Shown one piece after another: positions 36,792 through 52,652 of a DNA stretch of 64,000 nucleotides; the first letter of the stretch is position 1, and each line of letters opens with the position of its first letter. The position numbers and the translations under genes were made by a program. Below the pieces are notes generated by a model. The model worked only from the letters and a program-made list of their open reading frames with translations, did not search any database and was not told the DNA's origin. Source of the DNA: Candidatus Aminicenantes bacterium UBA1061 (GTDB taxonomy: Bacteria; Acidobacteriota; Aminicenantia; Aminicenantales; Saccharicenantaceae). Location: NCBI GenBank assembly GCA_002316315.1, contig DCDG01000018.1, forward strand, positions 56,074 through 120,073. The letters run 5' to 3'.

Positions 36792-37045
36792 TTTAAAAAA
36801 TCCAGAAAAGGCGCAGTTTATAAGACGGGGACAGCCATCAGACTGAAGCCGCACTTCAGCCCGAAGAAAGCACACCGGCGGCGAACCAAAAGCAAGAGCC
36901 TTCCTCTGGCCAACACCTTTGAGCTACCTGATCTCGCCTTCAAAAAGATAAAAATAAGTCAGCCCTTTGGCTGTCCTGATTTCCCGGGCATCTACTACCC
37001 GCACAGCCAGCTCGACCACTTGTCCGGCAATTCCCTGAGGTGAGC
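36792..37045 (-). repeat. Copy B of the dnaE2 3' terminus (about 250 bp; reading frame kept except for one stop)
   Basis: About 88-90% nucleotide identity to 52653-52920. Minus-strand translation gives ...GQVVELAVRVVDAREIRTAKGLTYFY..., matching the DnaE2 C-terminus. Confidence 0.8.
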
Positions 37046-37124
37046 GATTGGGAGAAGCGGCCTTCAGCTTAGAGCTAATGGTAAGCTATCTCCTGGGCCG
37101 TTCAGCATCTTTTTAGCCTCTAAC

Positions 37125-38339
37125 TTATTGATTATGAATGATATCCGCTGGCCCGACCCCATTTATCGAATAAACATTCAACTTGTCAGCTGTATTGGAA
37201 AGACAGATCCGGCTAAGCTGCTTCATGACCTCAAGATCATAATTTTCAATATAAGCTATATATAGCCTGCCATCCATTATCTGAGCCAGATTGTATCTGA
37301 TAAAATTGAAATAACAGGCCTGGCCGAGCTGGCTAAAATTCAGATCGTAGACATCTACAATGTATCTCTTTTTATCATCACGCTGGCCAGTCCAGACATA
37401 TATTTTCCCATCATCAATGTTCAGGCCAAAAATTGCCGGAAAATAGCGTGAGGGCCCTTTTAGTTCCTGTAAGATACGTTCAGAATTTGGGAAACGGATG
37501 ATCTTCATGTCATTGTCAAAGACATTAAAATCCTGCTCCGTAATGAGTTCCTTCTTTATTTTCTTCCCTTTAAAGGTTTTAACCAGCTTTCCATCTTTAG
37601 AATACTTATAAACCAGATAGTCAAAACTATCAGTTATATAAATATTCCCGGCTTCATCCAGAGCAAAATCTGGGATAAAGGTGGCAATGGAGCTCCCATG
37701 GCCTTCTTTTTGTTCGTAAATTAATTGGCTATGATTTCTCTGGCTATCGTATTTATAGATTAATATCTTCTTCTCCTCATTCCCGCCTAAAAGATAAAGA
37801 TTCCCTTCGCGGTCAAAACTAATTTTGTCAATGAATAAACCAGATAGGTTTGCTGGAAGACGTAGTTCATTTTTAAAATGGCCATCCGCTGTAAATATTT
37901 CCAGAGGCCGCCCAAAACTTGAGCTTACCCAGATATCGCCCTGGGGATCAACTGCCAGACAGCCGATGGCTTGAAATTCACCCGGGCCCTGACCCTTTCT
38001 ACCAAAGGAGAATAAGAAATTCCCATTTTTATCATAGGCATCTATTTGCTCACCTCTCACTTTATCCCAGGCGAAAATAAGACCGTTTTCAACGGCGAAA
38101 TAACCAATCCAGGTATAATAATGACCGGATCCCTCATCGCCGATGGTAAAAAGGGGCTGGCTCGAGGCAGCTAATGACCTTATCTCTGCTTTCTGACTGG
38201 AACAACCAGCAGCCAAAAGTAAAGCCATAAAGAAAATGATTATCTCAGGTATAATGGCTAAACTTTTTTCCCGACACCAGGCGCACAAATCAAGCAGTCT
38301 ATGACCAGGTCTGAAAGTATCGGAAATTAGTTCAATCAT
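37125..38339 (-). CDS. NHL-repeat / 6-bladed beta-propeller lipoprotein, paralog 1 (start probably the internal Met at about 38228, giving MALLLAAGCSS)
   Basis: Carries the GRKGQGPGEF signature followed by ...D..G.IWV..., which is NHL-like. Has a lipobox. It is one of 7 paralogs in this window. Confidence 0.7.
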   Translation of the reverse strand: MIELISDTFRPGHRLLDLCAWCREKSLAIIPEIIIFFMALLLAAGCSSQKAEIRSLAASSQPLFTIGDEGSGHYYTWIGYFAVENGLIFAWDKVRGEQIDAYDKNGNFLFSFGRKGQGPGEFQAIGCLAVDPQGDIWVSSSFGRPLEIFTADGHFKNELRLPANLSGLFIDKISFDREGNLYLLGGNEEKKILIYKYDSQRNHSQLIYEQKEGHGSSIATFIPDFALDEAGNIYITDSFDYLVYKYSKDGKLVKTFKGKKIKKELITEQDFNVFDNDMKIIRFPNSERILQELKGPSRYFPAIFGLNIDDGKIYVWTGQRDDKKRYIVDVYDLNFSQLGQACYFNFIRYNLAQIMDGRLYIAYIENYDLEVMKQLSRICLSNTADKLNVYSINGVGPADIIHNQ

Positions 38340-38517: not shown

Positions 38518-39645
38518 TTAATCAGGGATCTTCCAGCGGGCAGCCAGGCATTTAGCGCTCTGCGGGGCATTTTTCGGGTCATCAACCTGGTAATAAAGGG
38601 TGACAATCTGCCCCCTATCCACTTCAACCGAGCTTGGATACCCGCAGTCAGTATTTGGTGCTGAGGCGGAAATTATAATCTTTTTATCCCACTCCCAGGT
38701 TTTCCCGCCGTCCCGGCTGAAGATAGCCCGAACTCCCATCGGCGCATTACGCTCCCCATAGCTCAAGAGAGTCTGTCCATTTTTGAGCTGTATAAGATCT
38801 GCCGGATGCTCCATGTCCTGGGTTATCTGGAAGGGCGGCGACCAGTGCTTACCCCCATCTTCAGAACGGCTCACAGCTAAATGCCCGCCTTTCTCCGAGC
38901 GCATAGCCGCCAGTAAACTGCCATCGGGGAGGGCCAGCACAGCTGTTTCATTAAAATGCTCACCAACAAGAGAAGGCTCTCCCCAGGTTTTCCCGCCGTC
39001 TTTTGAACGAAAGACGTAGCTTTGATTTCCGCGGTCGTCAAAAAAATCAAAATAGACTGCCATGATAACTGTGCCATCCTCGAGCTGGATAATCTTTCCA
39101 TAAGGCGAGACGGCCCCGCGGCCAGCATAAAATGAATGAATCTCCAGGCTCAGTTCAGGTTTCGTCCAGGTTTTTCCCTTGTCTTTTGAACGGATGACAT
39201 AAACGCCATCGAAAACCCATTTCGAGACGTCTTCAGGAAGTCTTTGCCCGTCAGCCTCATATCCGCTGAGGACAGCATAGGCCAGAAGAATTGTGCCATC
39301 AGCCAGTTGACCAAGTGCCGGGTTACGGTCGTCTTCTGGACCGTCAACAACCGTCCAGGGTTTGGACCAGGTTCGGCCGCCATCATCAGATATGACCAGA
39401 TCAAGGCGCCCGGCCCGGCTAAGGTGAGCGCCGCCACCCCTGATAACAGCCAGAATTTCGCCAGTTGATAGCTTGACCGCCACTGGAAAATAGCCTCCTC
39501 CTTCGACTGCCGTCACCTGATCCATTGAAGTGAAGGCCGCCATGCTGATACAACACATCAGTCCGGTGAGACTCAGAACCGCCAGCCACCGCCGGCCCCA
39601 CCTGTTATTCTTCTTGCTCTTCATTTCCTTTATTTCTTTTATCAT
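38518..39645 (-). CDS. BNR/Asp-box repeat protein (sialidase-superfamily beta-propeller), secreted
   Basis: Five S-x-D-x-G-x-T-W Asp-box motifs (SDDGGRTW, SKDKGKTW, SKDGGKTW, SEDGGKHW, SRDGGKTW). The N-terminus has RR followed by a hydrophobic stretch, which may be a Tat signal. Confidence 0.7.
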   Translation of the reverse strand: MIKEIKEMKSKKNNRWGRRWLAVLSLTGLMCCISMAAFTSMDQVTAVEGGGYFPVAVKLSTGEILAVIRGGGAHLSRAGRLDLVISDDGGRTWSKPWTVVDGPEDDRNPALGQLADGTILLAYAVLSGYEADGQRLPEDVSKWVFDGVYVIRSKDKGKTWTKPELSLEIHSFYAGRGAVSPYGKIIQLEDGTVIMAVYFDFFDDRGNQSYVFRSKDGGKTWGEPSLVGEHFNETAVLALPDGSLLAAMRSEKGGHLAVSRSEDGGKHWSPPFQITQDMEHPADLIQLKNGQTLLSYGERNAPMGVRAIFSRDGGKTWEWDKKIIISASAPNTDCGYPSSVEVDRGQIVTLYYQVDDPKNAPQSAKCLAARWKIPD

Positions 39646-39901: not shown

Positions 39902-40200
39902 TTCAAAAATGAACTTATTAGGGTGATAAAAAAGTGTGAAGGAAGGCGCAGTTTATAAGGCGGGGGCAGCTGTCAGACTGAAGCCGCACTTCAGCCCGAA
40001 GAAAGCACACCGGAGGTGAGCTAAAAGCCAGGGCCTTCTTCTGACCTACGCCCTCAACCTGCCCGCTCTCATCTTCGAAAAGACAAAAATAAGTCAAGCC
40101 GCGCGATGTTCTGATTTCCCGGGTATCCATTACCGGGATAGCTAGCTCGGTCATCTGACGGCACAATTCCTTGAGATGTTCGATCCGCAGCGGCGGACAC
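39902..40200 (-). repeat. Copy C of the dnaE2 3' terminus (about 300 bp; ORF 39918-40217 intact)
   Basis: Encodes ...REIRTSRGLTYFCLFEDESGQVEGVGQKKALAFSSPPVCFLRAEVRLQSDSCPRLINCAFL, which is 85-90% identical to the DnaE2 C-terminus. Confidence 0.8.
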
Positions 40201-40353: not shown

Positions 40354-41526
40354 TTATTTCTTCCAGGTAGCCTGATAACAGCAAATATACTGATAACCTT
40401 CTTCGTCCTTCTCAATAGTGTATATTTTGCCGTTTTTTGCAAGAAAGGCTTGGCCTGTCATCTCACAGCGCGCGATAAGCTTCCCTTCAGCACTGAAGAT
40501 ATCCACCAAATAAGAATCCTTAGCCTTACCTTTCTCATAAGTCCTGACATAGAGCCGGTTCTCCTCATCAACAAAGAAACCAGAGAAAGCAGGATAGTTA
40601 GCCGGAAAAACTACCATCTCTTTCAAATTCATTCCCGGTGTCTCCGGTATCTGCTTGAGCATTTCTTCTTTATCTTTCTGACTTATAGACTGCGGTCGAT
40701 ATTCTTTTCGCACTATTTTGACCAGCTGGCCTTCCGGATTGAAATATTTAATTTCATAAGAGGAACTACGGCCATAAATAATATTTCCACTTCCATCCAG
40801 GCAATAATCATAAGTGATCGTAAAGGGATTAATCTTGCCGCCACCCAGGGGCGAAGCCATTAGCAGCGTATCAATTTTAAAAAGCTGGTTAAAATCAGCA
40901 TCATATTTAGCAATAGTATAGGCTATCGAATTCCCTTCCATCCCCATTTCGCAACCTACATATTGACCGCCGCTGTCAATTACTTCCAACATAGCCAGTT
41001 TCTTAGCGTAAGAAACTTCTCTCGTCATCTTACCTTCAAGGTCGGAATAAATCAGTTTTCGGTTACCACTATCATTTATCATCAGTTCGCGGTCAGATAA
41101 GAGCTGGAGTCCAGACGGAGCGTTCCACTCGCCCGGGCCCTGGCCTTCTTGGCCAAATTCTTTTAGCTTTTTGCCATTTGGATCGAAGACATTGACCTTT
41201 TTTGCCTTAAAATCCAGAACAAAAATCCGGCCGTCAGCCGCAACATCGGCTCCAGCTACAACCCCGAAGGCGCTTCCTCCTTGTTCCAGCTTTCCGATGG
41301 TAATTTCTTTGGTTAAAATCAATCTCTGAGAGCCAGAAGGTTTAGCTTTATTCTCGATTATCTGGACATCAGCTTTATCAGCCAGCCTGATAACGGCCTT
41401 ATCTGCTACGGAAAAAGCCGATACAGAAAAAACTGAAATCATGGCTACAAGGAAAACTGGCACATACATAAACGATCTGTGTGTAAATTCTTTTTTTCTC
41501 ATCTTCCTCCCCTTGCTTATCAACAT
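40354..41526 (-). CDS. NHL-repeat / 6-bladed beta-propeller secreted protein, paralog 2
   Basis: Signature GQEGQGPGEW, signal peptide, 390 aa. Confidence 0.7.
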   Translation of the reverse strand: MLISKGRKMRKKEFTHRSFMYVPVFLVAMISVFSVSAFSVADKAVIRLADKADVQIIENKAKPSGSQRLILTKEITIGKLEQGGSAFGVVAGADVAADGRIFVLDFKAKKVNVFDPNGKKLKEFGQEGQGPGEWNAPSGLQLLSDRELMINDSGNRKLIYSDLEGKMTREVSYAKKLAMLEVIDSGGQYVGCEMGMEGNSIAYTIAKYDADFNQLFKIDTLLMASPLGGGKINPFTITYDYCLDGSGNIIYGRSSSYEIKYFNPEGQLVKIVRKEYRPQSISQKDKEEMLKQIPETPGMNLKEMVVFPANYPAFSGFFVDEENRLYVRTYEKGKAKDSYLVDIFSAEGKLIARCEMTGQAFLAKNGKIYTIEKDEEGYQYICCYQATWKK

Positions 41527-41541
41527 TTTAAAATGGCTGCC

Positions 41542-42531
41542 TTATTTAGAGCGACCTGCGATAAAAGGCATCATAAATAAGCCCGGGTCCATTCCTTCTT
41601 CTTCCTTTTTCTTCTTTATAGCTCTTATGTCACTTTTAGTGAGTGCTCCTCCGCTGGATTCAGTATCTTCAACTGGATTAAGTTCTGTAACCTTTTTGTT
41701 TTCTATCTTGCCCATAACATAAAGACAATAGGGGTTGTTTGGTGCTTTTTCCAAAGCTAACTTAGCATAGTTCTCAGCCTCATCAATTTTCCCGGCTTTA
41801 AGAAGGGTAAAAGCTAAGGAATAAAGATATCTGGTGTTTTCTGATTTTGAAAGAGCTTCTTTCCAATAATACTCTGACTCCTGATATTTTCCCCTCCTGA
41901 AGAAGGCAGTCGCCAGGTCGCGGAAATACACTTCATTATCCTTATACTTGCTTTCCAGACCAGAGTCATCTTTTAAGGCAATCATTGACCAATTCTCTTC
42001 CTCCCCTGAGGTCCATAACTCTAAAAAATCTTTCTCTTTGACAAAAATATTTTTCCCTAAAAGAGGATCAGCTAAGACAATCGAGTCCTTTTGGTATCCA
42101 ACCACCAGTCGGTAATGTCCTTTATCGATTTCTTTTGAAGCTTTCTGAAAAACCACCACCGGAACTCCCTTTGAGATTAGCTCCTTTAAATCATTCAAAT
42201 TACCCTTAAAAGAATATGACTTCAGCCCTTTTGATTGAGGATAAAAAACCATCTCAGAGAGCTTCATCACTTTTTCCTTTTCGTCAAAAACTCTGGCAGC
42301 AACCATTTCCTGTTTTTCATCTAAGCCATAAAAATGAAGCATCATCTGCAAAACCGCTGGCCCGCACCACCCGTTTTTCTCCTGCTTATAAAATTTCATG
42401 TTTTTTATAACATTGGCTTTTTTAGGAATGGATTCAGCCTGATAGAAATAGGTATGAGAGGCACATGAAGAAAAAACGCTTATCACAAAGATTAGTAGCA
42501 AATTTTTTAGCCTTTTGTTTTTACCTTTCAT
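41542..42531 (-). CDS. Lipoprotein with a C39-like papain-fold peptidase domain (Peptidase_C39_2 type) and C-terminal TPR repeats
   Basis: Lipobox VFSSC. Candidate catalytic Cys in NGWCGPA and candidate His in KGHYRLVVGY. TPR-like repeats follow (YWKEALSKSEN..., AENYAKLALEKAPNNPY). It lies directly upstream of NHL paralog 2 on the same strand, separated by 15 bp. Confidence 0.55.
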   Translation of the reverse strand: MKGKNKRLKNLLLIFVISVFSSCASHTYFYQAESIPKKANVIKNMKFYKQEKNGWCGPAVLQMMLHFYGLDEKQEMVAARVFDEKEKVMKLSEMVFYPQSKGLKSYSFKGNLNDLKELISKGVPVVVFQKASKEIDKGHYRLVVGYQKDSIVLADPLLGKNIFVKEKDFLELWTSGEEENWSMIALKDDSGLESKYKDNEVYFRDLATAFFRRGKYQESEYYWKEALSKSENTRYLYSLAFTLLKAGKIDEAENYAKLALEKAPNNPYCLYVMGKIENKKVTELNPVEDTESSGGALTKSDIRAIKKKKEEEGMDPGLFMMPFIAGRSK

Positions 42532-43064: not shown

Positions 43065-43318
43065 TTAAAAGCTATGGAGAAAGGCACAGTTTATAAGGCG
43101 GGGGTAGCCGTCAGACTGAAGCCGCACTTCCCCTCTAAGAAAGCACACCGGAGGCGAGCCAAAAGCCAGAGCCTTCCTCTGCCCCACGCCCTCAACCTGC
43201 CCGCTTTCATCTTCAAAAAGATAAAAATAAGTCAGGCCGCGCGACGTTCTGATTTCCCGGGCATCTACTACCCGGACAGCCAGCTCAACCACCTGTCCGG
43301 CAATTCCCTGAGGTGAGC
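43065..43318 (-). repeat. Copy D of the dnaE2 3' terminus (ORF 43065-43292 intact)
   Basis: Encodes MVELAVRVVDAREIRTSRGLTYFYLFEDESGQVEGVGQRKALAFGSPPVCFLRGEVRLQSDGYPRLINCAFL. About 90% nucleotide identity to the dnaE2 3' end. Confidence 0.8.
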
Positions 43319-43438
43319 GATTGGGAGAAGCGGCCTTCAGCTTAGAGCTAATGGTAAGCTATCTCCTGGGCCGTTCAGCATCTTTTTAGCCTCTAACTTA
43401 TTGATTATGAATGATATCCGCTGGCCCGACCCCATTTA

Positions 43439-43716
43439 GATGGCAGGTTGAAAGATAACCCGGCAGCCAGATCTTTTGACCTTCACCTTGATTTCATGAT
43501 ACTTGCCGTCCCAGCTTTCCGGAACAGGATAACCAAGAACGTAATAGGCACCGGTCAGAGTCTCAATTTTCTCAATATGGTCGGGAGCAGCATAGATTGT
43601 CCCGGTGTACTGACCTCCAGTCTTCCAGGCTATCTCTCGAAGAGAAACGGTTCCCCTTGGATGAATAGATTCCTGAATTATTAGATATGTATTATCTTCC
43701 GTATCAACCGGAAAGC
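43439..43716 (-). pseudogene. Fragment (about 280 bp) of a VWA-like gene paralog, homologous to 47237-47516
   Basis: About 88% nucleotide identity to the C-terminal coding part of the 46807-48468 gene. No start codon, and it is fused directly to other repeat fragments. Confidence 0.65.
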
Positions 43717-44039
43717 CCTTTCAGGTTAAGAGATGGCATCCGAAACTAAGGAGAAGTGACGAGCTTCTGTATCAATGATCTATCAAGAATTAGTATCGAT
43801 GGCTTGACGAGAGTTAAGGCTAATAGAAATAATGAATGGCGAGTTGCAACAAAATTTTTGTGGTGAGCAACACTAAAATAACAGCCGGCGTCTAAACATT
43901 TAAACCTTGAAGCCTAAATCAAAAAAAGACCTCCTCTCCAATCACTATTTTCCCCCTCCTTATCTACCACACCCTTGGCTGAAGAGCCTACAAAGACTTG
44001 ACTTTCTTTTTTTTTGCGTTAACATATTAAAAAGAAAGC

Positions 44040-45023
44040 ATGATGAAAGCTACTAGCCTTACCCACAAGGACAAATTGTGTTTTCTTCAGGGTTCTGTTA
44101 AGAAGCGCAAAACATGTGCGATTGGACTGATAGCCGTGCTGTATATTCTTACTCTTATGTCATGTGTATCACCAAAACCGTCCGACAAGACAAATATTCT
44201 GCCTGAATTTGTGGCAGCCGCTTATGGAGATAAAAATCTAGTTTCTAAGGAGTTGCGCGGCTGCACGTTCGTAATTTTTATCAATTCTACAGAGACCTAT
44301 CACATCGATCTCCTCGAGAAAGTATACAGAGATTATTCAGACGACGTCAATATTATCGCTTTTGTTGGCCAAATTTCCCTTCTCCCACTCTTGCACGACA
44401 GATTCCCGAGAGCCTGGATCATAGATGATAGCCAACAACTTTTCGTTGAAAAGTTTGATGCTAGATCTTGTTGCGGCCGATTTTTCATCTATGATTCGAG
44501 CAAACAATTAATCGCAGCTGGGAACAATACAGTATTCTATGAAGAAGGAACTAGATCAATTTTACAAAGAACCGTGGACCATATCAGTTTCGATATTTCA
44601 GTTCTGATACCCGAACAGAGCGTATCAGATAGTCCCGTGTTTCGAGAATTATGGGATCGATTACGTGTCCAAGAAAAGAGTACATATGTAATATTTATGC
44701 TGTCTGATATTTGTGGCTCCTGCCCCGTTGCCAAGACAATTTCGGAATTGTCAGCAGCATTAATCAGGCAACTAGATACCATTGGAGTAGCATTTCTCTT
44801 CTCGTCAGATTTTTCAGATATCGATATCCGGAACTTCAAAGTAAAATGGTCAGTTCCCTGGCCGTGTATACGTGCCGATGGCGATCTGGCTCTTAAATGG
44901 AATGATTTAATTCATGATTTTAGTCGAGAAGAACTGAATCAGATCCTTCTGCTTGTGGATTCGAGAGGAAAGTTGCTGGCCATAAACCAGGCCGCTTTTA
45001 AGAAACTGGTAGAGGTGAAATAA
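44040..45023 (+). CDS. Tandem thioredoxin-fold (TlpA/redoxin-like) lipoprotein
   Basis: Lipobox LTLMSC. The second domain carries CxxC (DICGSCP). The first domain is redoxin-like with a single Cys (RGCTF). It is separated by 1 bp from the downstream NHL paralog 3. Confidence 0.55.
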   Translation: MMKATSLTHKDKLCFLQGSVKKRKTCAIGLIAVLYILTLMSCVSPKPSDKTNILPEFVAAAYGDKNLVSKELRGCTFVIFINSTETYHIDLLEKVYRDYSDDVNIIAFVGQISLLPLLHDRFPRAWIIDDSQQLFVEKFDARSCCGRFFIYDSSKQLIAAGNNTVFYEEGTRSILQRTVDHISFDISVLIPEQSVSDSPVFRELWDRLRVQEKSTYVIFMLSDICGSCPVAKTISELSAALIRQLDTIGVAFLFSSDFSDIDIRNFKVKWSVPWPCIRADGDLALKWNDLIHDFSREELNQILLLVDSRGKLLAINQAAFKKLVEVK

Positions 45024-45024
45024 G

Positions 45025-46110
45025 ATGCCAGACCTAAAAACCAGAGTAGCATGGGCAATACTTGTGTTGATGATGCTTGCTTCTGGGCAGGCTCCGGCCT
45101 TGTTGTCCCAGAGCAAATACAGAACCGATTCAGATATTAAGAAGACGCTTCTTGAGAAATATCGAATCCAACCAGAGTGGCAAGAGATGGAAATTGTTCG
45201 CATCTTTCCCGGCGAGGAGGACCTAAAATCATCTCACTATTTAAACTATCCATCAGATCTAGTTCGAATCGGGGATAACTTGTTCGTTGGGGACTATGGC
45301 CTGGGGCAAGTCTTAATCTTCGACAAGGATGGGACATATCGTGGTACCTTCGGACGTCGCGGACAAGGTCCTGGTGAGTTTTCCCGTCTGGGAGAGATAG
45401 CCGGCAACGAAGCCAGCGGAATCTATGTCACCGACTCCGGAAGAATCCAGCATTTTTCCTTGGATGGTAGTTTTTTGGAGTCATTTAAATTTTTTGATAT
45501 TGTTAATGATATGGTCATTAATGGCCCTCATTTGTTGATTAATGCGATCTATGGACAGTCCAAAAATAAACAGAATCCTCTGATCATCCGCTGTGATCTC
45601 GCCGGAAATATCATATCGACCTTCGGCAACCGAATTGATCAAGACAACCATTATTCTACTGATAGCCGTGCTTATTTGGCTGCACGGGGCAGCGAAACTG
45701 TAGCCGTCTTCAGGCATTACCCCCAAATTCAAATCTATGATCATCTGGGAGTTCTGAAGAAACAATCGCAAATCAGTATTCCAATTCTTACCCATCTTGA
45801 AAAATTCAACTATGATAGCTCATTCACCAACCCGATGCCTGGCGTTATTAATTTGACCAGGCTGGTTGCCGGCGTTCAGATAGCAAGGGATAAAATCTTT
45901 ATTCTTTTGCATCTGCCCAGGATTGAGATTCATGAAATTGATGAATCCGGAAAGGTTCAAAAAGTGTATTATAGTCAGCGTTTAAACAATATCGTTGATT
46001 ATAGGGGATTTGCCTTAAGGCCTGACGGACCGGATTATTTCGCCTATATCGTCACCGTTTCTGAGGAAGAGATTTCATTATATACTTTTAAAATCAAACA
46101 AACCAGATGA
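45025..46110 (+). CDS. NHL-repeat / 6-bladed beta-propeller secreted protein, paralog 3
   Basis: Signature GRRGQGPGEF, signal peptide, 361 aa. Confidence 0.7.
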   Translation: MPDLKTRVAWAILVLMMLASGQAPALLSQSKYRTDSDIKKTLLEKYRIQPEWQEMEIVRIFPGEEDLKSSHYLNYPSDLVRIGDNLFVGDYGLGQVLIFDKDGTYRGTFGRRGQGPGEFSRLGEIAGNEASGIYVTDSGRIQHFSLDGSFLESFKFFDIVNDMVINGPHLLINAIYGQSKNKQNPLIIRCDLAGNIISTFGNRIDQDNHYSTDSRAYLAARGSETVAVFRHYPQIQIYDHLGVLKKQSQISIPILTHLEKFNYDSSFTNPMPGVINLTRLVAGVQIARDKIFILLHLPRIEIHEIDESGKVQKVYYSQRLNNIVDYRGFALRPDGPDYFAYIVTVSEEEISLYTFKIKQTR

Positions 46111-46237
46111 TAATAAAGCCTATATAGCTAAGATAAAAGTTAGGATAAAGGAATATGGCAACACTTGGAGGAAAAGAAGAGAAACTATTTGGCGCTATGT
46201 TAGAATGCGACCCCAAAATTATTGATAGGAAGATAAA

Positions 46238-46450
46238 ATGAAAAGAGTCATCTGGGTGATCGGAGTAATAGGCTTTTTATCTGTGAGTCTGATCATCCCA
46301 ACGCATGCCGTGGTGAATACTCCGCTGAAATGCTCATCTTTGGTAGAATGCGGCGATTGGTTAGAGTGCCCGGAGCGAGGACGCGAAATTCAGCGCTGCG
46401 TACTCGATTGCGAAAATGGCCCAATCGTTTTTTGCCCTGGTCCAATGTGA
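46238..46450 (+). CDS. Small secreted cysteine-rich peptide (70 aa, 8 Cys in the mature part)
   Basis: Signal peptide, then a Cys-rich region of about 45 aa (KCSSLVECGDWLECPERGREIQRCVLDCENGPIVFCPGPM). Lies immediately downstream of NHL paralog 3. Confidence 0.4.
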   Translation: MKRVIWVIGVIGFLSVSLIIPTHAVVNTPLKCSSLVECGDWLECPERGREIQRCVLDCENGPIVFCPGPM

Positions 46451-46806
46451 TAATGAAGAACCTCAACGAGGCCCTGGTAATTCCTTCAGGATGTACTTAT
46501 AACTGTAAGCGCGCGGGCTGAAAAGATAATCGCTGATCTTTTCGGCCAAGCATTGAGGCCACAGCTTGATTGAGTGAAAACATAGGCATAGCCAAAGAAG
46601 GTCTTCTTATAAAAACAGGGTGTTAATATTTTCATTTGACCCGAGCATGGATGTGTATACATAAACCAGTCAAATACCCACAGGTTTTTGAGCTCCTCTA
46701 AATACAGGATTAAGATCGGTGCAGCGATCAACAATCCGATGATCTTTTTAATACTTCTTGTGAAGGCTAGACAAGAGCCATCGCCTTTGTGGCAATTACA
46801 TCTTTT

Positions 46807-48468
46807 TCAATTTTTATCAGGCCCGGGGATGATGACAGAAGCTGCCGCCACAGCTGACTTGCCTGTCTCCATATTCCTTATGACCAGCCGGCACTTGTAA
46901 GTTCCTGGTTTAGCTGAAAGTTCACTCTGAATGGAGAGAGGTTTCTGGCGATACTCAGGTTTCGTTAGATCAAGCTCAATACGCCGGCTGTCAACTATCT
47001 GATCAAGCTGGTCAAAGAGAAGACTGACTGCTTCCACTCTCGGACCGACAACTTCCCCCAGCTCCTCCAACCGAAGCCTCGCTATGATCTGAATATTATT
47101 GGGTGGCGCAGGCGATTTAACCTGAGCCTCCATATCAAACCGTAACGGTTCGCCAGAGAGTGGCCTGGGTGAAAGAGCCACATCGACCAGGTGAATTTTT
47201 TTCTCCAGCTCTGAAAAGGAAGAAAATGGCTTCTGATTGAAATAGCCAGGTTGAAAGATAACCCGACAGCCAGGTCTTTTAACCTTCACCTTGATTTCAT
47301 GATACTTGCCGTCCCAGCTTTCCGGAACAGGATAACCAAGAACGTAATAGGCAGCGGTTAGAGTCTCAATTTTCTCAATGTGGTCGGGAGCAGCATAGAT
47401 TGTCCCGGTGTACTGACCTCCAGTCTTCGAAGCCATCTCTCTCAAGGAAGGTATTCCCTTTGCGGTCTCAGGGTACTCCAAATAGAAATTATCTTCAGTA
47501 TCAACGGGAAAGACTGAGGCATTAGCATCAGCTAACTGACGGCAGAGCTGTTCATATTCCCGGCCGAGATGAGCATTGCCATTATCAACATAGGCACCGC
47601 GACCTATATAGGCCGGGTGGATGCCGTTAGAATAAAGAAGAATGATTTTCTTCCCCTGAATATAACGCAGGGCCTGGGCGAGAGACTGCATTGACCAGAT
47701 AAAGTTAGAAGATACGATCTTGCCCGCCATTACATCATTGGACATCCGCCCAGGGCCCGAGCGTGAATATGAATCATAAGCAGCTCCGGAAGTTGCGATC
47801 TGGAATTGCGAATCAAAGAAGCGGCTCGGAGCCAGTGGCATAATATCTTTAGCCTGAATAGACTCAATCGCCCGTCGTGCTCCTTCCCGGTCACGGTCAG
47901 GCTGATGCAGAACATTGAGAACGCGGCCACCAGAAAAAGTTAAAACCCCAACCAGCATGTCCGGCTCAAGCTCTTTCTCAAGAGAGCGAAGCGCTGCCTC
48001 CCGGGCTAATTTAAATCCTCCCTGATCAGTAAACACTAAATCAAATAAATAGAGGAAGATGCGGTTTAGAAGAGGTTGCGGGGCCGGTACCTTCTCTTCT
48101 GGCTTATTTTCGACGACAGGCTCGGGTCCTTTCTTTTCAGCCGGGAGAGACATGGTGTGATTCTCAAACTCGGTCAGCAGCTTCTCCTTACCATTATCAT
48201 AAAGAATAAAGTCTTCTTTGCTCAGGTCAGTCACCGGCTGGCCTTTATCATCAGTCACCATGACATAGATGAGCTTTCTGATGACACTGACCTGGTATTG
48301 CTGGTTATCCCTGACCTTTTCCTGCCCTTGCCCCATGTTTGGCAGCAAGGAAACGAAAACGCCAACAACCAGGAAGGCCACAAGAATAATTACGATCAGC
48401 GAGCTTGAACGCCTATTCCCGGCCGAAGCTTTCCCTCTTGATAAAGCCCTGAAGACCTCAAGCTTCAT
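46807..48468 (-). CDS. Membrane-anchored VWA-like protein (resembles the VWFA-related Acidobacterial-type domain family)
   Basis: N-terminal transmembrane segment. A beta-sandwich N-domain (VMVTDDKGQPVTDLSKEDFILYDNGKEK) is followed by a VWA-like region (LVGVLTFSGG...). 553 aa. Confidence 0.45.
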   Translation of the reverse strand: MKLEVFRALSRGKASAGNRRSSSLIVIILVAFLVVGVFVSLLPNMGQGQEKVRDNQQYQVSVIRKLIYVMVTDDKGQPVTDLSKEDFILYDNGKEKLLTEFENHTMSLPAEKKGPEPVVENKPEEKVPAPQPLLNRIFLYLFDLVFTDQGGFKLAREAALRSLEKELEPDMLVGVLTFSGGRVLNVLHQPDRDREGARRAIESIQAKDIMPLAPSRFFDSQFQIATSGAAYDSYSRSGPGRMSNDVMAGKIVSSNFIWSMQSLAQALRYIQGKKIILLYSNGIHPAYIGRGAYVDNGNAHLGREYEQLCRQLADANASVFPVDTEDNFYLEYPETAKGIPSLREMASKTGGQYTGTIYAAPDHIEKIETLTAAYYVLGYPVPESWDGKYHEIKVKVKRPGCRVIFQPGYFNQKPFSSFSELEKKIHLVDVALSPRPLSGEPLRFDMEAQVKSPAPPNNIQIIARLRLEELGEVVGPRVEAVSLLFDQLDQIVDSRRIELDLTKPEYRQKPLSIQSELSAKPGTYKCRLVIRNMETGKSAVAAASVIIPGPDKN

Positions 48469-48666
48469 TTTTACCCCTCCAGGAATCTATAAATTTATCT
48501 TAAGCTTTCCGCCCTGAAATTAGCAACTTTTGTGCCAGAGCCATTTCCCCAACCTTTCCTGATATATACCGCTTTATACTGTCTGTCCTGTTCGACTTCA
48601 TGAACACCTGTCCACTAAAAATGACATCATGCTTCAGGGCGCAGGCCGTGCCCTACCTAAATTTCG

Positions 48667-49797
48667 TCACTTCAGCCCTGGCTTAATCAAATCCCAGTTT
48701 TTAATAGCATAGCGCTTGATCATGACCAGCCCCTTTTCTTCATCTACATGTCTGGCCCAGAGATGTCCTTTCCGGATGACAAGGCAGCGGCTGTAAGGCA
48801 GGGTTGTGCGGTAAAGGTAATAGCCGTCACGGCTGTAAATATCATATTCATGCCCGGCTGAAGCTTCAGCTTTTGGGTTAGTCCGAAGAACCCAGATCCT
48901 GCCGACATCATCCGTATAAAACCTATAAAAGAAGGGCTGCTCTTTAATCGGTAGATATTTAGCTACATCTTCAGCCTCTTCGGGAGGAATCGGCCTGGCC
49001 GGCTGCTGATTTTTGATAATGCAAAGCTTCCGTCCTTCTGTATTCATCAGGGTCAATTCATACTGCCTGGAAAAACCATAGACAAAAATCTCAGGGTTAA
49101 CAGCTGCTGCCTGTAAATCATATTCATATCCGGTGACGACAGAGAGAGTCCTTCCTCCCTCAACTTTCGTATAATTTTCGTACGGTACCTTAATTACCTG
49201 AAGGAGACTCCTTCCATCTGGCCCAATTTTTTCGAGAGATTTAGCTCTGCCTTTCTCATCAGCCAGTGACATAATACCCCAGATGTATCCTTGCCCATCG
49301 ACAAAGAAATCAGTGCAATAACTGCCCAGAGTAATGGATTTGAGATAGGTTCCATCCAGCTGGTAAAGAATCAGGCTGAATATGCTATCTCTTACATACA
49401 AAGTCTTTTTATCAGGTCCGATGAAGAGATTACGTGGCGATTGATACTCACCTGGCCCCTGACCGAAACCACCAATGGTCTTAAGATAATTTCCATTAGA
49501 GTCAAAAACCTTTAGAGCTGGCGGCTTCATTTCTGTAAAATAAATCCTTCCTTCCTCATCAACCACCAGGTCAAAAATATTGCCCAGCATGGTTTCTGGT
49601 TTATCCTCGCTGCCAATGCTCAGCTCCTCTTCCAGTTGAAGAGAAAGAGTGCCAAAAGCAGGCTCAGCTGGATTATTAACCACCGTCAGGCCGCCTTCCT
49701 TTTCTATTTTCCCCTTCCAGGCCTGATTTTCCTGCTTCCCTCCACAGCAGATAAGAAGCAAGGGCAAGAACCAGAGAATCAATTTAAGTCTTTTCAT
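48667..49797 (-). CDS. NHL-repeat / 6-bladed beta-propeller lipoprotein, paralog 4
   Basis: Lipobox LLLICC. Signature GGFGQGPGEY. Confidence 0.7.
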   Translation of the reverse strand: MKRLKLILWFLPLLLICCGGKQENQAWKGKIEKEGGLTVVNNPAEPAFGTLSLQLEEELSIGSEDKPETMLGNIFDLVVDEEGRIYFTEMKPPALKVFDSNGNYLKTIGGFGQGPGEYQSPRNLFIGPDKKTLYVRDSIFSLILYQLDGTYLKSITLGSYCTDFFVDGQGYIWGIMSLADEKGRAKSLEKIGPDGRSLLQVIKVPYENYTKVEGGRTLSVVTGYEYDLQAAAVNPEIFVYGFSRQYELTLMNTEGRKLCIIKNQQPARPIPPEEAEDVAKYLPIKEQPFFYRFYTDDVGRIWVLRTNPKAEASAGHEYDIYSRDGYYLYRTTLPYSRCLVIRKGHLWARHVDEEKGLVMIKRYAIKNWDLIKPGLK

Positions 49798-49911
49798 CTT
49801 TCCTTCCTACTCACTGTTTTTGTTGTTTTCATAAGTGATATATCAGTCTGATTAATAAGCACTACTCTCAGACCAGTTCGATTTGTTTAAAACAGCGAGT
49901 TTGATTATCTT

Positions 49912-50030
49912 ACCATCTTCTCTTCTGAACTCCATTGTCTAAGCTTCATCCTGACACCTCCTTACTCAGTATAATCTCTATCTCTTTGAGGTGTCCACCT
50001 CCTCAGGGGGTCAGTATAACCTCTTATACT
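49912..50030 (-). mobile_element. Solo left-end remnant of the IS3-family element (inverted repeat, 5' UTR and first ~12 codons of orfA)
   Basis: About 90% identical to 59950-60070. The reverse complement begins ATGAAGCTTAGACAATGGAGTTCAGAAG, encoding MKLRQWSSE as in orfA at 59993. Confidence 0.7.
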
Positions 50031-50409
50031 TAGCACTGAGCTTGTAACGTTTAAGCACATAGCGGACAGTAGAAGGCTTAACCTCAACTCCCCGTTCGCG
50101 AAGTATCCTGGCCACCCGGTCTCGGCCAAAGCCAGTCTTCTTCCTCTCGGCTATGATCAGAGCTTCCACCGCCGCTGACGTTCTCCGAGGCGAGCGTTTT
50201 GGCCTTCGAGACAGCGGCTTCAGCCCAGCCTCTCCTCTCTCCTCCCACCGCCTTACTACCTTCCTCACTGTCTTGCGAGTCGTTCTAAACACCCTGGCTA
50301 CTTCTGAGATATTCCCACTCTCCTCATAGGCCTTAATCACTGCCTTCCTGGCGAATTCCACTGACCCCTTGAAAAGCTCACAGTAACTGAGGTATAAAGA
50401 TTCTGTCAC
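50011..50409 (-). CDS. IS481-family transposase N-terminal (HTH) fragment; the DDE integrase domain is missing
   Basis: The pattern ...GLKPLSRRPKRSPRRTS...STVRYVLKRYKL is typical of IS481-type transposase N-termini. The ORF stops after 132 aa, and its last codons run into the IS3 end remnant. Confidence 0.5.
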   Translation of the reverse strand: MTESLYLSYCELFKGSVEFARKAVIKAYEESGNISEVARVFRTTRKTVRKVVRRWEERGEAGLKPLSRRPKRSPRRTSAAVEALIIAERKKTGFGRDRVARILRERGVEVKPSTVRYVLKRYKLSAKYKRLY

Positions 50410-50575
50410 TCGGGGCTCACCTCCTTTCTTTTAAGAGTTTCAATAACACTTTTAATGGAGGGAGCCCTGCTTTTTCAAGTACCAAGCTCATAAATCTCCG
50501 GCCTTCTTCTATCCCTGTCCCTACTGCCGGCTCTCCAGCACGTCGCGACCAAAGCTCCTTACTCCTCCATCCTCC

Positions 50576-50617
50576 CTGGATACTATGTCTTAACCTGAAT
50601 GAGAAAAAGACTTGACA
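50576..50617 (+). promoter_or_regulatory. Second copy of the conserved promoter-like motif, upstream of the small peptide/NHL paralog 5
   Basis: TGGATACTATGTCTTAACCTGAATGAGAAAAAGACTTGACAG versus TGGATATGATTTACTGATCTGAATGAGAAAAACCATTGACAA. Confidence 0.4.
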
Positions 50618-50690
50618 GACCGTTTTTTTTATTCATTTTTAAAGCAGAAGGAGATGATGGAAATAAAAATCTGAAAAAGGGGAATATACC

Positions 50691-50918
50691 ATGAAAAAAG
50701 TTGTGTCTGTTCTTCTCTTGATTCTCATTTTTATGCGGATCACCATGAGTATTTTAAATTTCACAACAAAAGTCTACGCTTCAGCACCGTCTATTTTCGG
50801 CACGACAACCAGGGGCGGGAGCTATTATGATCAGCTTAGATGGTACCTTCAGGGCCGGTGGATGTACGGAGATTACTATTGCATTGGTGAAGCATCTAAT
50901 TGTTCCATAGTCAACTAA
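50691..50918 (+). CDS. Small secreted peptide (75 aa; Tyr/Gly/Cys-rich C-terminal part)
   Basis: Signal peptide, then ...GGSYYDQLRWYLQGRWMYGDYYCIGEASNCSIVN. Lies 40 bp upstream of NHL paralog 5. A TTGACA-containing conserved motif sits upstream. Confidence 0.35.
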   Translation: MKKVVSVLLLILIFMRITMSILNFTTKVYASAPSIFGTTTRGGSYYDQLRWYLQGRWMYGDYYCIGEASNCSIVN

Positions 50919-50960
50919 ATTCCTATATCATCTCCTCCTATCCATGAAAAAGGACATAAG

Positions 50961-52055
50961 ATGAGGAAAATAGGATTAAAAGGTTTACTAACATTTGTCA
51001 TTTATCTTCAGATGGTGAGTATCTGCTTCTCGCAACTAGTAAAATTAGATAAAAAAATACCGATAGAAGAAAACGCACTTATTGTCTCTGGCTCTTTTGC
51101 CCTGTTACCGAATGGAACTTTCATTTTTACCGATATTAGAGATGAGAATAACCAGATTAAAATTATCAATGACAAGGGGAAGATAATAAAAGCCTGGGGT
51201 AAAATGGGACCAGGACCAGATGAGTTCAGTGGTCTGGCAGAAATCGATTATCAGAATCCTTACTTAGCCATTATGGATGCAGGCAAAAGATGCATTCATA
51301 TTTTTGAGACAGACCTCGATAAATTCAGAAAAATAGGAGACATCCTCGCCTGGGAGGCAACAGATTTTATTAAATTATATGATAAAAGCGTTTTAATGGG
51401 CGGGTATATCACTTCGCCGAAAGGAAAGGGCTACATAGTATTCGCGAGAGATTTTAATGGAGGTAATACGCAATATATTCTTCCCTTTGAATATAAATAT
51501 GGAGAGCGTTCCTTAAGTGAACATCAAAAGACCAGAGAAGAAGTTTCAGGTATATCATCTAGAGATTATGCTGACATTTATGAAGATGACCTCTTTTATA
51601 TAAGCGATGTGAGAGTCAGGGTGATTAAGACCAATCTCAAGACCAAAAAGATAGAAATCCTCGGGAAAGATCCAAAGAATTTCAGAGCGCTGGTGATGGA
51701 TAAGAAAACCAGGAACGAATTACTGCAACCGCAAACTGGCAAGGGGAAAATGCAAGAGATTTTAAATAAATTTTCTTTTGTAACTCGTATTTTTGTTGAC
51801 AAAGACTATTTTGGCCTGATCTTTTTGAACCGGGAAAAAAAGGTCGGCAATGAACTCTATTTTGTGGCCTATGTTCAAATTTATGATCACTCTGGAAAGG
51901 TGTTGTATGAAGGTCAGCTGGAAGACTTTTATACTGAAGAGAAGATTTCTCCACTTGTTTATCAAAAAGGGACAGGCTGCTTGTATTTGCTTGGTATGAC
52001 CAGCAGTGAACTCGGCGTAAAATATGTGATTTATAAATATCAGATTAAATTATGA
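50961..52055 (+). CDS. NHL-repeat / 6-bladed beta-propeller secreted protein, paralog 5
   Basis: Signature GKMGPGPDEF, signal peptide, 364 aa. Confidence 0.65.
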   Translation: MRKIGLKGLLTFVIYLQMVSICFSQLVKLDKKIPIEENALIVSGSFALLPNGTFIFTDIRDENNQIKIINDKGKIIKAWGKMGPGPDEFSGLAEIDYQNPYLAIMDAGKRCIHIFETDLDKFRKIGDILAWEATDFIKLYDKSVLMGGYITSPKGKGYIVFARDFNGGNTQYILPFEYKYGERSLSEHQKTREEVSGISSRDYADIYEDDLFYISDVRVRVIKTNLKTKKIEILGKDPKNFRALVMDKKTRNELLQPQTGKGKMQEILNKFSFVTRIFVDKDYFGLIFLNREKKVGNELYFVAYVQIYDHSGKVLYEGQLEDFYTEEKISPLVYQKGTGCLYLLGMTSSELGVKYVIYKYQIKL

Positions 52056-52550
52056 AGAGGCTTATTTATTTTTTAGCGGCAGTAATCGTCCTTTATCTGA
52101 TCAGCGTAATTTATAAATATCAGGTAACACCAATATTGATTAATTTCCCGGTCGATGAACTGGGAATAATCCCTAAAAAGAAGTCAGGTTGAATCTTGTG
52201 CTGTTCTTTTCAAAAAAAATTGCACACCGTGTGTTCAACATATAGTAAATTATTTAAACGAGGCACCAGAAAGTATTCAGGTTGTGGGAATAGTCAAGGA
52301 GGAAGAACTAAAGTTTTTAGATGAGATTAGAGAAACAACTGGGGCGAAATTTCCAATTAAAAGCATAAAAAAATGGAAGAAATACAGACCAAATTATGCT
52401 CCCACTTTATATGGGGTTGGCTCTGATGGTAAAATATATTTTGTCATCGCTTGTACTGCCCTCGAAGAGAATTATTGGCGGGCATATGTTGATGAATTTA
52501 TGAGAAAAGCTGAATATTTGCTACTAAAACCAAGTTTAAAATCAAATTGA
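52052..52550 (+). pseudogene. Frameshifted membrane-anchored thioredoxin-like (CxxC) gene
   Basis: An ATG overlapping the NHL5 stop opens a 46-aa transmembrane-anchor ORF ending at about 52190. A different frame then continues as ...SCAVLFKKNCTPCVQH... through ORF 52284-52550, resembling the second domain of the 44040 redoxin. The frame change lies in or near A5-A8 homopolymers. Confidence 0.45.
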
Positions 52551-52652
52551 GATGTTAGATAATAAAGATGGTCTTATGATAAGAATCATGATTGTGTGGT
52601 ACTGATTCAATTTCCATTGGATATATAAGATACTTATATTTATTTGACTGAT

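What the first reader, a model, noticed from the sequence alone, without database searches (positions are those of the whole stretch)
44040..46110. Recurring thioredoxin-NHL gene pairing, once intact and once frameshifted
A tandem redoxin lipoprotein (CxxC: DICGSCP) is separated by 1 bp from NHL3. After NHL5, an ATG overlapping the stop opens a transmembrane-anchored CxxC (NCTPC) redoxin. Its reading frame is broken at about 52160-52190 near A-homopolymers. This could be a pseudogene, a sequencing error or phase variation. The repeated pairing argues for a functional link between the propeller and a thiol-disulfide oxidoreductase.
Basis: seen in the sequence. Interest (0 to 1): 0.55.

Follow-up and report, generated by a model that had tools for sequence, protein, structure and literature searches.

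The report
Thioredoxin–propeller–cysteine-peptide gene cassettes
Two small gene cassettes in an Aminicenantes genome each combine a secreted cysteine-containing peptide, a six-bladed propeller protein and a membrane-tethered thioredoxin-like protein; the grouping recurs in distant relatives, and one cassette's thioredoxin gene is a real, fixed pseudogene.

Summary
ORF 44040-45023 encodes a two-domain thioredoxin-fold protein (Trx2) with an invariant CxxC. It ends 1 bp before a DUF5128/NHL-like propeller gene (45025-46110). A second propeller gene (50961-52055) overlaps by ATGA a membrane-anchored CxxC thioredoxin-fold gene (52052-52550).

That second gene is broken by two 1-nt deletions, at 52175-52179 and 52212-52219, relative to intact orthologs. 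Both lesions are also present in a second strain that differs by 78 SNPs and no indels. This points to a fixed pseudogene rather than a random read error. Relatives carry other, independent lesions.

The pairing is conserved:
- Every Trx2 relative whose downstream gene could be read (7 distinct) is followed by a propeller of one clade.
- Every small-Trx relative (7) is preceded by a propeller of another clade.

A signal-peptide mini-protein with invariant cysteines sits in each cassette: 6 Cys at 46238-46450 and 2 Cys at 50691-50918. Two distant relatives also carry a MauE (DsbB-like) gene with its CGC motif.

Best reading: these are dedicated extracytoplasmic cassettes for oxidative folding of the peptide, assisted by the propeller. 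None of these families is in Pfam or NCBIfam, and no paper describing the cassette was found. All function is inferred.

The parts
44040..45023 (+). Trx2: membrane-tethered (lipobox-like LTLMSC) protein with two thioredoxin-fold domains. Domain 1 (about residues 55-180) is ResA-like and has no CxxC. Domain 2 (about residues 200-327) carries the invariant C225-x-x-C228.
   Evidence: The family has 212 representative clusters. The CxxC is invariant in a 32-sequence alignment. No Pfam or NCBIfam model matches.
45025..46110 (+). NHL3: secreted six-bladed propeller (DUF5128, NHL-like), 1 bp downstream of Trx2. The mature protein has a single Cys.
   Evidence: Orthologs directly follow Trx2 in L012, L013, L014 (twice), L015, L024, L025/L026 and L028-L030.
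46238..46450 (+). Peptide A: 70-aa precursor made of a signal peptide and a roughly 45-aa mature part with six invariant cysteines (PLKC..L..CG....CP.RG.E...CVLDCE.G.IV.CP).
   Evidence: Homologs lie next to the Trx2-propeller pair in L012, L013, L014, L024 and L027. L025 has a different Cys-rich peptide.
50691..50918 (+). Peptide B: 75-aa precursor with a signal peptide and two invariant cysteines at the C-terminus (YYC..E...C.IV).
   Evidence: It is intact upstream of the NHL5-like gene in L031, L033, L034 and L035, and disrupted in L016-L018.
50961..52055 (+). NHL5: a divergent DUF5128-type propeller with a signal peptide. Its stop overlaps the start of the small Trx gene (ATGA).
   Evidence: (hhalign 97.9%).
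52052..52550 (+). Small Trx pseudogene: an N-terminal transmembrane helix followed by a thioredoxin-fold domain with CxxC (NCTPC here, NCPPC in intact orthologs of 159-166 aa). As assembled it reads as 46 aa (52052-52192) plus an 88-aa remnant (52284-52550).
52175..52179 (+). Lesion 1: A5 where intact orthologs have A6 (a 1-nt deletion, shifting the frame by -1).
52212..52219 (+). Lesion 2: A8 where the intact ortholog L007 has AAGAAAAAA (a 1-nt deletion).

Best explanation
The window carries two related kinds of extracytoplasmic three-gene cassette.

- Cassette A (44040-46450): Trx2 (CxxC), then a DUF5128 propeller, then a 6-Cys secreted peptide. It is intact.
- Cassette B (50691-52550): a 2-Cys secreted peptide, then a DUF5128 propeller, then a transmembrane-anchored CxxC thioredoxin-fold protein.

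Proposed mechanism (inferred). All three products are exported or tethered outside the cytoplasmic membrane. The thioredoxin-fold protein introduces or shuffles the disulfides of the co-encoded peptide. The propeller is the peptide's binding partner. It either presents the peptide to the CxxC site, as in a split version of the Trx-NHL cleft of NHLRC2/SOQ1, or forms the final complex with it. Where a MauE gene is present (relatives L013/L014 and L025/L026), MauE re-oxidises the thioredoxin as DsbB does for DsbA.

In this genome the cassette B oxidoreductase is a recent, fixed pseudogene with two 1-nt deletions ahead of the CxxC.

What is shown: gene order, fold assignments, invariant cysteines, conserved synteny, clade-specific co-inheritance, the lesions and their presence in a second strain. 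What is inferred: the substrate, the redox direction, the role of the propeller and the biological role of the peptides.
For: Synteny.
- Trx2 relatives at 46% to about 22% identity are each followed, at 1 bp or with an overlap, by a 356-375-aa DUF5128/NHL protein.
- Small-Trx relatives are each preceded, with a 4-bp overlap, by a 358-364-aa NHL5-like gene, in at least three different genomic neighbourhoods.
- In a neighbour-joining tree of 21 propellers, the Trx2-linked and small-Trx-linked propellers each form their own clade, apart from nine unlinked DUF5128 paralogs.

Peptides.
- In the window, signal-peptide mini-ORFs were found only next to the two Trx-linked propellers.
- Six Cys are invariant across six peptide A relatives at 27-62% identity. 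Two Cys are invariant in peptide B.

Other points.
- Propellers have 0-5 Cys beyond residue 30, a count that varies between homologs, so they are poor disulfide substrates.
- Thioredoxin fold: Trx2; small Trx. hhalign places the small Trx on Trx2 domain 2 with CxxC aligned on CxxC (E 1.6e-3).
- MauE/DoxX genes lie directly upstream of Trx2 in L025/L026, and upstream with an IS30-like gene in between in L013/L014. They carry the CGC motif, which a preprint shows is needed for MauE to replace DsbB (bioRxiv 10.64898/2026.03.05.709764).

Pseudogene.
- Intact orthologs exist (P0005 is 96% identical and 166 aa) and fix the correct frame.
- The two deletions are shown.
- The 499 bp are identical in L002, a strain with 78 SNPs and 0 gaps over 11.7 kb.
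- Other lineages carry other lesions: +1 C in L033 against the 99.75%-identical intact L031, a truncated Trx and split propeller in L035, and a remnant without CxxC in L022.
Against: - There are no experimental data for any component.
- The window has no MauE, so the oxidant of Trx2 here is unknown.
- The CxxC dipeptides (GS, DS, MN and others) are not DsbA-like, so the redox direction is open.
- Trx2 domain 2 shows no obvious cis-proline loop.
- Its sequence link to known thioredoxins is weak (E 0.35).
- The structure models have only about 70 pLDDT.
- Foldseek was inconclusive for the small Trx.
- Peptide B is disrupted in L016-L018 while the propeller and Trx are intact there, and no peptide B homolog was detected upstream in L019-L021.
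- The synteny sample is small: about 7 distinct contexts per family, out of 212 Trx2 clusters.
- L001 and L003 may derive from the same sample as the window, so only L002 is clearly an independent confirmation of the lesions.
Confidence: 0.6

Rival explanations
1. The thioredoxin-fold protein serves the propeller, not the peptide. The propeller would be a redox-dependent enzyme, for example one that repairs or modifies envelope proteins, as proposed for the Trx-NHL protein SOQ1. The CxxC protein would recycle it, and the small peptides would be unrelated or regulatory.
Against: It does not explain why secreted peptides with invariant cysteines accompany both cassettes across distant relatives. 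It also does not explain why a DsbB-like MauE, an oxidant, sits upstream of Trx2. The NHLRC2 CC(I/V)NC motif is absent.
Confidence: 0.2
2. The thioredoxin-fold protein is a private folding catalyst for the propeller itself. The model would be DsbL/DsbI for the periplasmic propeller enzyme arylsulfate sulfotransferase in E. coli (recalled from knowledge, not tested here).
For: The genes are tightly spaced or overlapping.
Against: Mature NHL3 has one Cys. Paired propellers have 1-4 Cys beyond residue 30, a number that varies between orthologs.
Confidence: 0.04
3. The broken small Trx gene is a contingency (phase-variable) gene, or is rescued by slippage. Length changes in the A tracts would switch it on and off, or transcriptional slippage on A8 would restore some full-length product.
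For: Both lesions lie in A runs. From the present sequence, one further 1-nt loss in A5 would reopen a full-length ORF that keeps the CxxC ('one-del' reading). Related assemblies differ in homopolymer lengths in this gene.
Against: - Two lesions must be corrected to recover the ancestral protein.
- The tracts are short (5 and 8 nt).
- The second 'tract' arose by loss of a G from AAGAAAAAA.
- The state is identical in two strains.
- The most variable assemblies (L008/L009) have homopolymer indels everywhere, including in NHL5 and dnaE, so they look error-prone.
- L010 has only 1.7x coverage.
- Other lineages show truncation rather than tract changes.
Confidence: 0.1
4. The frameshifts are assembly or sequencing artefacts and the gene is intact in the organism.
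For: The lesions are in homopolymers, which is the classic error site.
Against: The same two lesions occur in an independent assembly of a different strain (L002: 78 SNPs and no gaps in 11.7 kb) and in JGI contig L003. The rest of the window has long intact ORFs.
Confidence: 0.06

Closest known systems
NHLRC2 / SOQ1 (Trx-like domain fused to a six-bladed NHL propeller; PMC6107167)
   Different: Here the two are separate polypeptides encoded by tightly spaced or overlapping genes. The active site is a plain CxxC, not CC(I/V)NC. The propeller is DUF5128-type. Trx2 has an extra CxxC-less domain. A cysteine-peptide gene accompanies the pair. That paper found no conserved operon partners for bacterial NHLRC2 homologs.
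MauE/MauD with methylamine dehydrogenase (mau cluster), and the MauE oxidative-folding pathway (bioRxiv 10.64898/2026.03.05.709764)
   Same: A membrane MauE with a CGC motif is paired with a CxxC thioredoxin-fold partner that serves a small, disulfide-rich secreted subunit. From my own knowledge, that subunit associates with a propeller heavy subunit. MauE genes lie upstream of Trx2 in L013/L014 and L025/L026.
   Different: Trx2 matches no NCBIfam model at E <= 0.01, so it does not match a MauD model either. The peptides are about 45 aa, not about 130 aa. They have no conserved Trp pair for a TTQ cofactor. The propeller is six-bladed DUF5128, not the seven-bladed MauB. No other mau genes were seen. 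The window itself has no MauE.
Dedicated thiol-disulfide oxidoreductases in bacteriocin operons (PedC for pediocin PA-1, PMC4919988; BdbB for sublancin, from knowledge)
   Same: A CxxC accessory protein is encoded next to a small secreted cysteine peptide and is needed for correct disulfides.
   Different: Those systems have no propeller partner. Their peptides use double-glycine leaders and ABC exporters, whereas the peptides here have Sec-type signal peptides. There is no sequence relationship.
ResA / TlpA / CcmG / DsbE extracytoplasmic thioredoxins
   Same: They share the fold, including the N-terminal beta-hairpin, membrane tethering and a CxxC at the start of helix 1.
   Different: No Pfam or NCBIfam family threshold is reached. 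Trx2 is a tandem in which the ResA-like domain has lost its CxxC. No cytochrome c maturation genes lie alongside.

Membership tests
Thioredoxin-fold thiol-disulfide oxidoreductases (TlpA/ResA/DsbE-like) | Thioredoxin fold (beta-alpha-beta-alpha-beta-alpha-beta-beta-alpha core) | tested here: met
Thioredoxin-fold thiol-disulfide oxidoreductases (TlpA/ResA/DsbE-like) | CxxC at the N-terminus of helix 1, conserved across the family | tested here: met
   C225 and C228 are invariant in 32 Trx2 sequences. C58 and C61 are invariant in 8 small-Trx sequences. In the models the motif lies between strand 1 and helix 1.
Thioredoxin-fold thiol-disulfide oxidoreductases (TlpA/ResA/DsbE-like) | cis-Proline loop opposite the CxxC | tested here: inconclusive
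   The small Trx has an invariant 'YAPT' before the strand pair. In Trx2 domain 2 the equivalent stretch reads L-N-N/Q-I with no Pro. In domain 1 a conserved 'CC' aligns to the ResA 'PLPT' loop. Model coordinates were not inspected.
Thioredoxin-fold thiol-disulfide oxidoreductases (TlpA/ResA/DsbE-like) | Score above a curated Pfam or NCBIfam family cut-off | tested here: not met
   Trx2 has no hit even at E <= 10 in Pfam. The restored small Trx hits Thioredoxin_8 at E 0.091 (13.5 bits against 27). NCBIfam gives nothing.
DUF5128 (PF17170) six-bladed beta-propeller | Score above the Pfam gathering threshold (22.9 bits) | tested here: met
   NHL3 scores 48.4 bits. NHL5 scores only 20.4 bits, but hhalign against the paralogs gives 97.9% probability, E 6.5e-13, so it is a divergent relative.
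NHL repeat (PF01436) | Recognisable NHL repeat units | tested here: inconclusive
   No PF01436 hit for the window proteins at E <= 0.01. The NHL3 orthologs in L013 and L015 score 22.8-26.2 bits against a cut-off of 20. All show partial similarity to the NHL protein ScyF. 'NHL-like' is a fair description.
NHLRC2/SOQ1 orthologs | Single polypeptide with Trx-like and NHL domains, and a CC(I/V)NC motif | tested here: not met
   The genes are separate. The motifs are CGSC and CTPC/CPPC. The family definition is taken from PMC6107167.
MauE-MauD oxidative folding pair | MauE membrane protein with a CXC motif encoded beside the thioredoxin-fold partner | tested here: not met
   Not met in the window: tblastn finds no MauE in 64 kb. 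Met in relatives L013/L014 and L025/L026: PF07291 hits and the CGC motif.
Phase-variable (contingency) gene | A single slippage-prone tract whose length varies within a population and toggles the frame | not testable with these tools
   Reads are not available. Indirectly: two lesions, short tracts, and the same state in two strains argue against it.
Bacterial lipoprotein | Lipobox with an invariant Cys after the signal-peptide hydrophobic region | not tested
   'LTLMSC' (window), 'FTFMSC' and 'LAFVSC' (two closest homologs) resemble a lipobox. P0004, P0016 and P0017 lack the Cys. No predictor was run.

The most novel reading that the evidence does not exclude
These cassettes define an undescribed, widespread maturation system (212 Trx2 clusters at 50% identity). 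In it, a DUF5128 propeller and a dedicated thioredoxin-fold partner, a split prokaryotic counterpart of NHLRC2/SOQ1 fed by MauE where present, fold and hold a new class of Sec-exported, disulfide-knotted mini-proteins such as toxins, bacteriocins or signals. That would give the first functional handle on the DUF5128 family, and a concrete substrate type for the Trx-NHL partnership, whose substrates are still unknown in humans and plants.
Probability: 0.25. Interest if true: 0.75.

Novelty: new variant of a known kind. Interest (0 to 1): 0.5.

Why it matters
DUF5128 propellers are a sizeable uncharacterised family; this window alone holds seven in 25 kb. The Trx-NHL partnership is conserved up to human NHLRC2, which is essential and disease-linked, yet it has no known substrate. 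A bacterial operon that places a thioredoxin-fold CxxC protein, an NHL-like propeller, a cysteine-invariant secreted peptide and sometimes the DsbB-like MauE side by side gives a directly testable hypothesis: the propeller presents a small peptide for disulfide formation. It also adds a likely client system to the newly proposed MauE oxidative-folding pathway, in anaerobic Aminicenantes. The pseudogene part is ordinary. It shows that cassette B is dispensable and decays repeatedly.

Tried and rejected
- Pfam and NCBIfam scans of Trx2, the restored small Trx and both peptides gave no usable family.
- A single-deletion restoration of the small Trx ('KRSQVESCAVLFKKNCTPC') was rejected, because intact orthologs match the two-insertion reading ('KKEVRLNLVLFFS.KNC').
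- Homopolymer polymorphism between metagenome contigs first looked like phase variation. L008/L009 carry homopolymer indels throughout, also in NHL5 and dnaE, and L010 has 1.7x coverage. I therefore discounted them as error-prone.
- A genome-contig scan with the Trx2 alignment found nothing. Broader Trx2 alignments were too divergent for the pattern search.
- The word-indexed homolog search with the family profile returned only 6 proteins. The synteny sample therefore rests on metagenome contigs.
- The profile of the small Trx against PDB sequences gave nothing.
- The promoter and terminator scan of 43400-52700 found no more sites than in shuffles, so it was uninformative.
- No MauE was found in the window.
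- No paper mentions DUF5128, or Aminicenantes together with NHL repeats.
- pN/pS of the restored gene against L007 is 0.32, but from only 11 differences, too few to date the inactivation.
Full report
**Source and setting**

The window is 100% identical to GCA_035441505.1 contig DAOROR010000007.1 over the 21-kb locus L001 (window 34040-55023). The only named genomes that hold relatives of the small thioredoxin gene are Candidatus Aminicenantes and Ca. Saccharicenans MAGs. The 553-aa neighbour matches the Acidobacteria-type VWA model TIGR03436. The window 37-62 kb holds seven DUF5128-type propeller paralogs.

**Observation, pair 1**

- ORF 44040-45023 (327 aa) contains C225-G-S-C228. It ends 1 bp before ORF 45025-46110 (361 aa), which hits PF17170 DUF5128 at E 1e-12.
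- Pfam and NCBIfam give nothing for the 327-aa protein. Only four close homologs exist in the 5.8-billion-sequence index.
- An exhaustive profile search finds 212 representative clusters. Almost all are 300-350 aa and cover both domains.
- In a 32-sequence alignment only P55, C225 and C228 are invariant.
- The AlphaFold2 model (pLDDT 70.8) shows two thioredoxin-like beta-alpha-beta-alpha-beta-alpha-beta-beta-alpha units.
- Foldseek returns ResA, TlpA, CcmG and StoA thiol-disulfide oxidoreductases (prob 1.0, E about 5e-6).
- The family profile hits ResA chains at E 5.8e-7 through domain 1, which has lost the CxxC. Domain 2 carries it.

'Tandem redoxin' is therefore right. 'Lipoprotein' is plausible for the window and its two closest relatives only.

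**Observation, pair 2**

- ORF 50961-52055 ends in ATGA, which opens an ORF for a transmembrane helix that stops after 46 aa. 'NCTPC' and the rest of the protein lie in other frames.
- Intact orthologs exist: P0005 (96% identity, 166 aa) and P0006-P0011 (63-68% identity, 159-164 aa).
- These show that the ancestral reading is '...IPKKEVRLNLVLFFS(R/K)KNC(P/T)PC...'. The window therefore lacks one base in A6 (now A5, 52175-52179) and one base in AAGAAAAAA (now A8, 52212-52219).
- The model of the intact family (pLDDT 70.5) has a transmembrane helix followed by a thioredoxin-type strand and helix order. The CPPC sits just before helix 1, and 'YAPT' is invariant.
- hhalign aligns this family to domain 2 of Trx2 with CxxC on CxxC (E 1.6e-3, low probability).
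- NHL5 is a divergent DUF5128 relative (hhalign 97.9%).

**Is the frameshift real?**

The 499 bp 52052-52550 are identical in L001, L003 and L002. L002 (GCA_049654545.1) differs from the window by 78 substitutions and no gaps over 11.7 kb. It is therefore another strain, assembled independently, with the same two lesions. A random read error is unlikely.

Apparent homopolymer polymorphism in L008/L009 is not trustworthy. Those contigs carry homopolymer indels throughout, including in NHL5 and dnaE. L010 has 1.7x coverage.

Other lineages show different damage:
- L033 has +1 C in a C4 run, relative to the 99.75%-identical intact L031.
- L035 has a split propeller and a Trx truncated at 79 aa.
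- L022 keeps a 118-aa remnant without the CxxC.
- L016-L018 have a stop or a 2-nt insertion in peptide B.

Together these indicate repeated decay of a dispensable cassette. A regulated switch is less likely. Phase variation cannot be excluded without reads.

**Is the pairing more than chance?**

- Every Trx2 relative with readable flanks is followed, at 1 bp or with an overlap, by a 356-375-aa DUF5128/NHL protein. These are L012, L013, L014 (two copies), L015, L024, L025/L026 and L028-L030. In L027 the next gene overlaps Trx2 but is cut by the contig end.
- Every small-Trx relative is preceded, with a 4-bp overlap, by an NHL5-like gene, in different neighbourhoods. These include peptidase M14/glycine cleavage, ThyX/his operon, an ABC transporter, and dnaE2 here.
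- In a neighbour-joining tree (no bootstrap), the seven Trx2-linked propellers form one clade and the five small-Trx-linked propellers form another. The nine unlinked paralogs fall elsewhere.

**The third partner**

A screen of the window for signal-peptide mini-ORFs in intergenic DNA finds convincing candidates only next to the two Trx-linked propellers.

- Peptide A (46238-46450, 70 aa) has homologs adjacent to the Trx2-propeller pair in L012, L013, L014, L024 and L027. Six cysteines are invariant at 27-62% identity. L025 has another Cys-rich peptide with 11 Cys.
- Peptide B (50691-50918, 75 aa) is conserved upstream of NHL5-like genes in L031, L033, L034 and L035, with two invariant C-terminal cysteines.
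- The propellers have few cysteines, and their number varies between homologs.

**MauE**

In L025/L026 a 163-aa MauE/DoxX protein is encoded directly upstream of Trx2. In L013/L014 one is encoded upstream with an IS30-like gene in between. Both carry a CGC motif.

A 2026 preprint reports that MauE proteins replace DsbB in E. coli and need this CXC motif. It also recalls that MauD, a CxxC thioredoxin-fold protein, serves the six-disulfide small subunit of methylamine dehydrogenase. The window has no MauE.

**Mechanism proposed (inference)**

The peptide, propeller and thioredoxin all act outside the cytoplasmic membrane. The CxxC protein forms or shuffles the peptide's disulfides. The propeller binds the peptide, either as a presentation platform or as its final partner. 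MauE, where present, re-oxidises the CxxC protein.

The main rival is that the CxxC protein recycles a redox-active propeller enzyme (SOQ1-like). Private folding of the propeller is unlikely, given its cysteine content.

**Comparison with known systems**

- Trx-like plus NHL fusions (NHLRC2, SOQ1) are the nearest architectural precedent. The defining fusion and the CC(I/V)NC motif are absent here.
- MauE/MauD with methylamine dehydrogenase, and bacteriocin accessory oxidoreductases such as PedC, are the nearest functional precedents.
- No paper mentions DUF5128. No curated model covers Trx2, the small Trx or the peptides.

**Verdict**

The functional-link interpretation is supported and extended to a three- or four-gene cassette. 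The broken gene is most likely a young, fixed pseudogene. The cassette is a new variant of dedicated extracytoplasmic oxidative-folding modules. All functional claims remain untested.

Noticed in passing
window 36807-37165, 39929-40196, 43080-43438 and 52669-52907: Three extra copies (84-90% identical, same orientation) of the last roughly 270 bp of the DnaE-type polymerase gene (52653-55508, minus strand). That gene sits in a lexA / Y-family polymerase / dnaE cassette. The copies mark off blocks of propeller genes. This looks like successive islands inserted at the 3' end of dnaE, but no integrase was seen.
   Followed up: partly
window 43444-43638 and 47247-47441: A 195-bp repeat at 95% identity. 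The copy just upstream of Trx2 is a fragment of the VWA gene (46807-48468). The DNA upstream of cassette A is therefore a patchwork junction, where a MauE gene could have been lost.
   Followed up: no
window 37125-61520: Seven DUF5128-type propeller paralogs lie within 25 kb. NHL2 (40354-41526) is followed by a peptidase C39 plus TPR protein (41542-42531), and NHL1 lies next to a BNR/sialidase-like protein (38518-39645). IS fragments lie nearby (50011-50409 HTH; 58844-59692 rve), as does a serpin gene (62264-63556).
   Followed up: partly
window 51672-52550 compared with L007: Synonymous divergence changes abruptly between adjacent genes. pS is 0.31 in the NHL5 3' part but 0.048 in the small Trx gene. 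This suggests a recombination mosaic or a recent transfer of the Trx segment.
   Followed up: no
L016/L017 about 6650-6870; L018 6486-6712: The peptide B homolog carries an in-frame TGA in two assemblies and a 2-nt insertion in a third. The C-terminal 'YGDWYC..E..NC.IV' is still conserved downstream. This could be decay, recoding or assembly problems; it is unresolved.
   Followed up: partly
L014 123-2399 and 4828-7083; L013 760-1665: The Trx2-propeller-peptide A cassette is duplicated in tandem on one contig, and an IS30-like transposase sits between MauE and Trx2. The cassettes appear to be mobile or duplicating.
   Followed up: no
window 44466-44474 (Trx2 residues S143-C144-C145): Domain 1 of Trx2 lacks a CxxC. 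It has a 'CC' that is invariant among close relatives and aligns to the cis-proline loop of ResA. Many distant members have 'YG' at this position instead.
   Followed up: no
L015 1732-1827: Here the peptide A homolog is only a 28-aa ORF that ends right after the first Cys. It may be another decayed cassette member.
   Followed up: no
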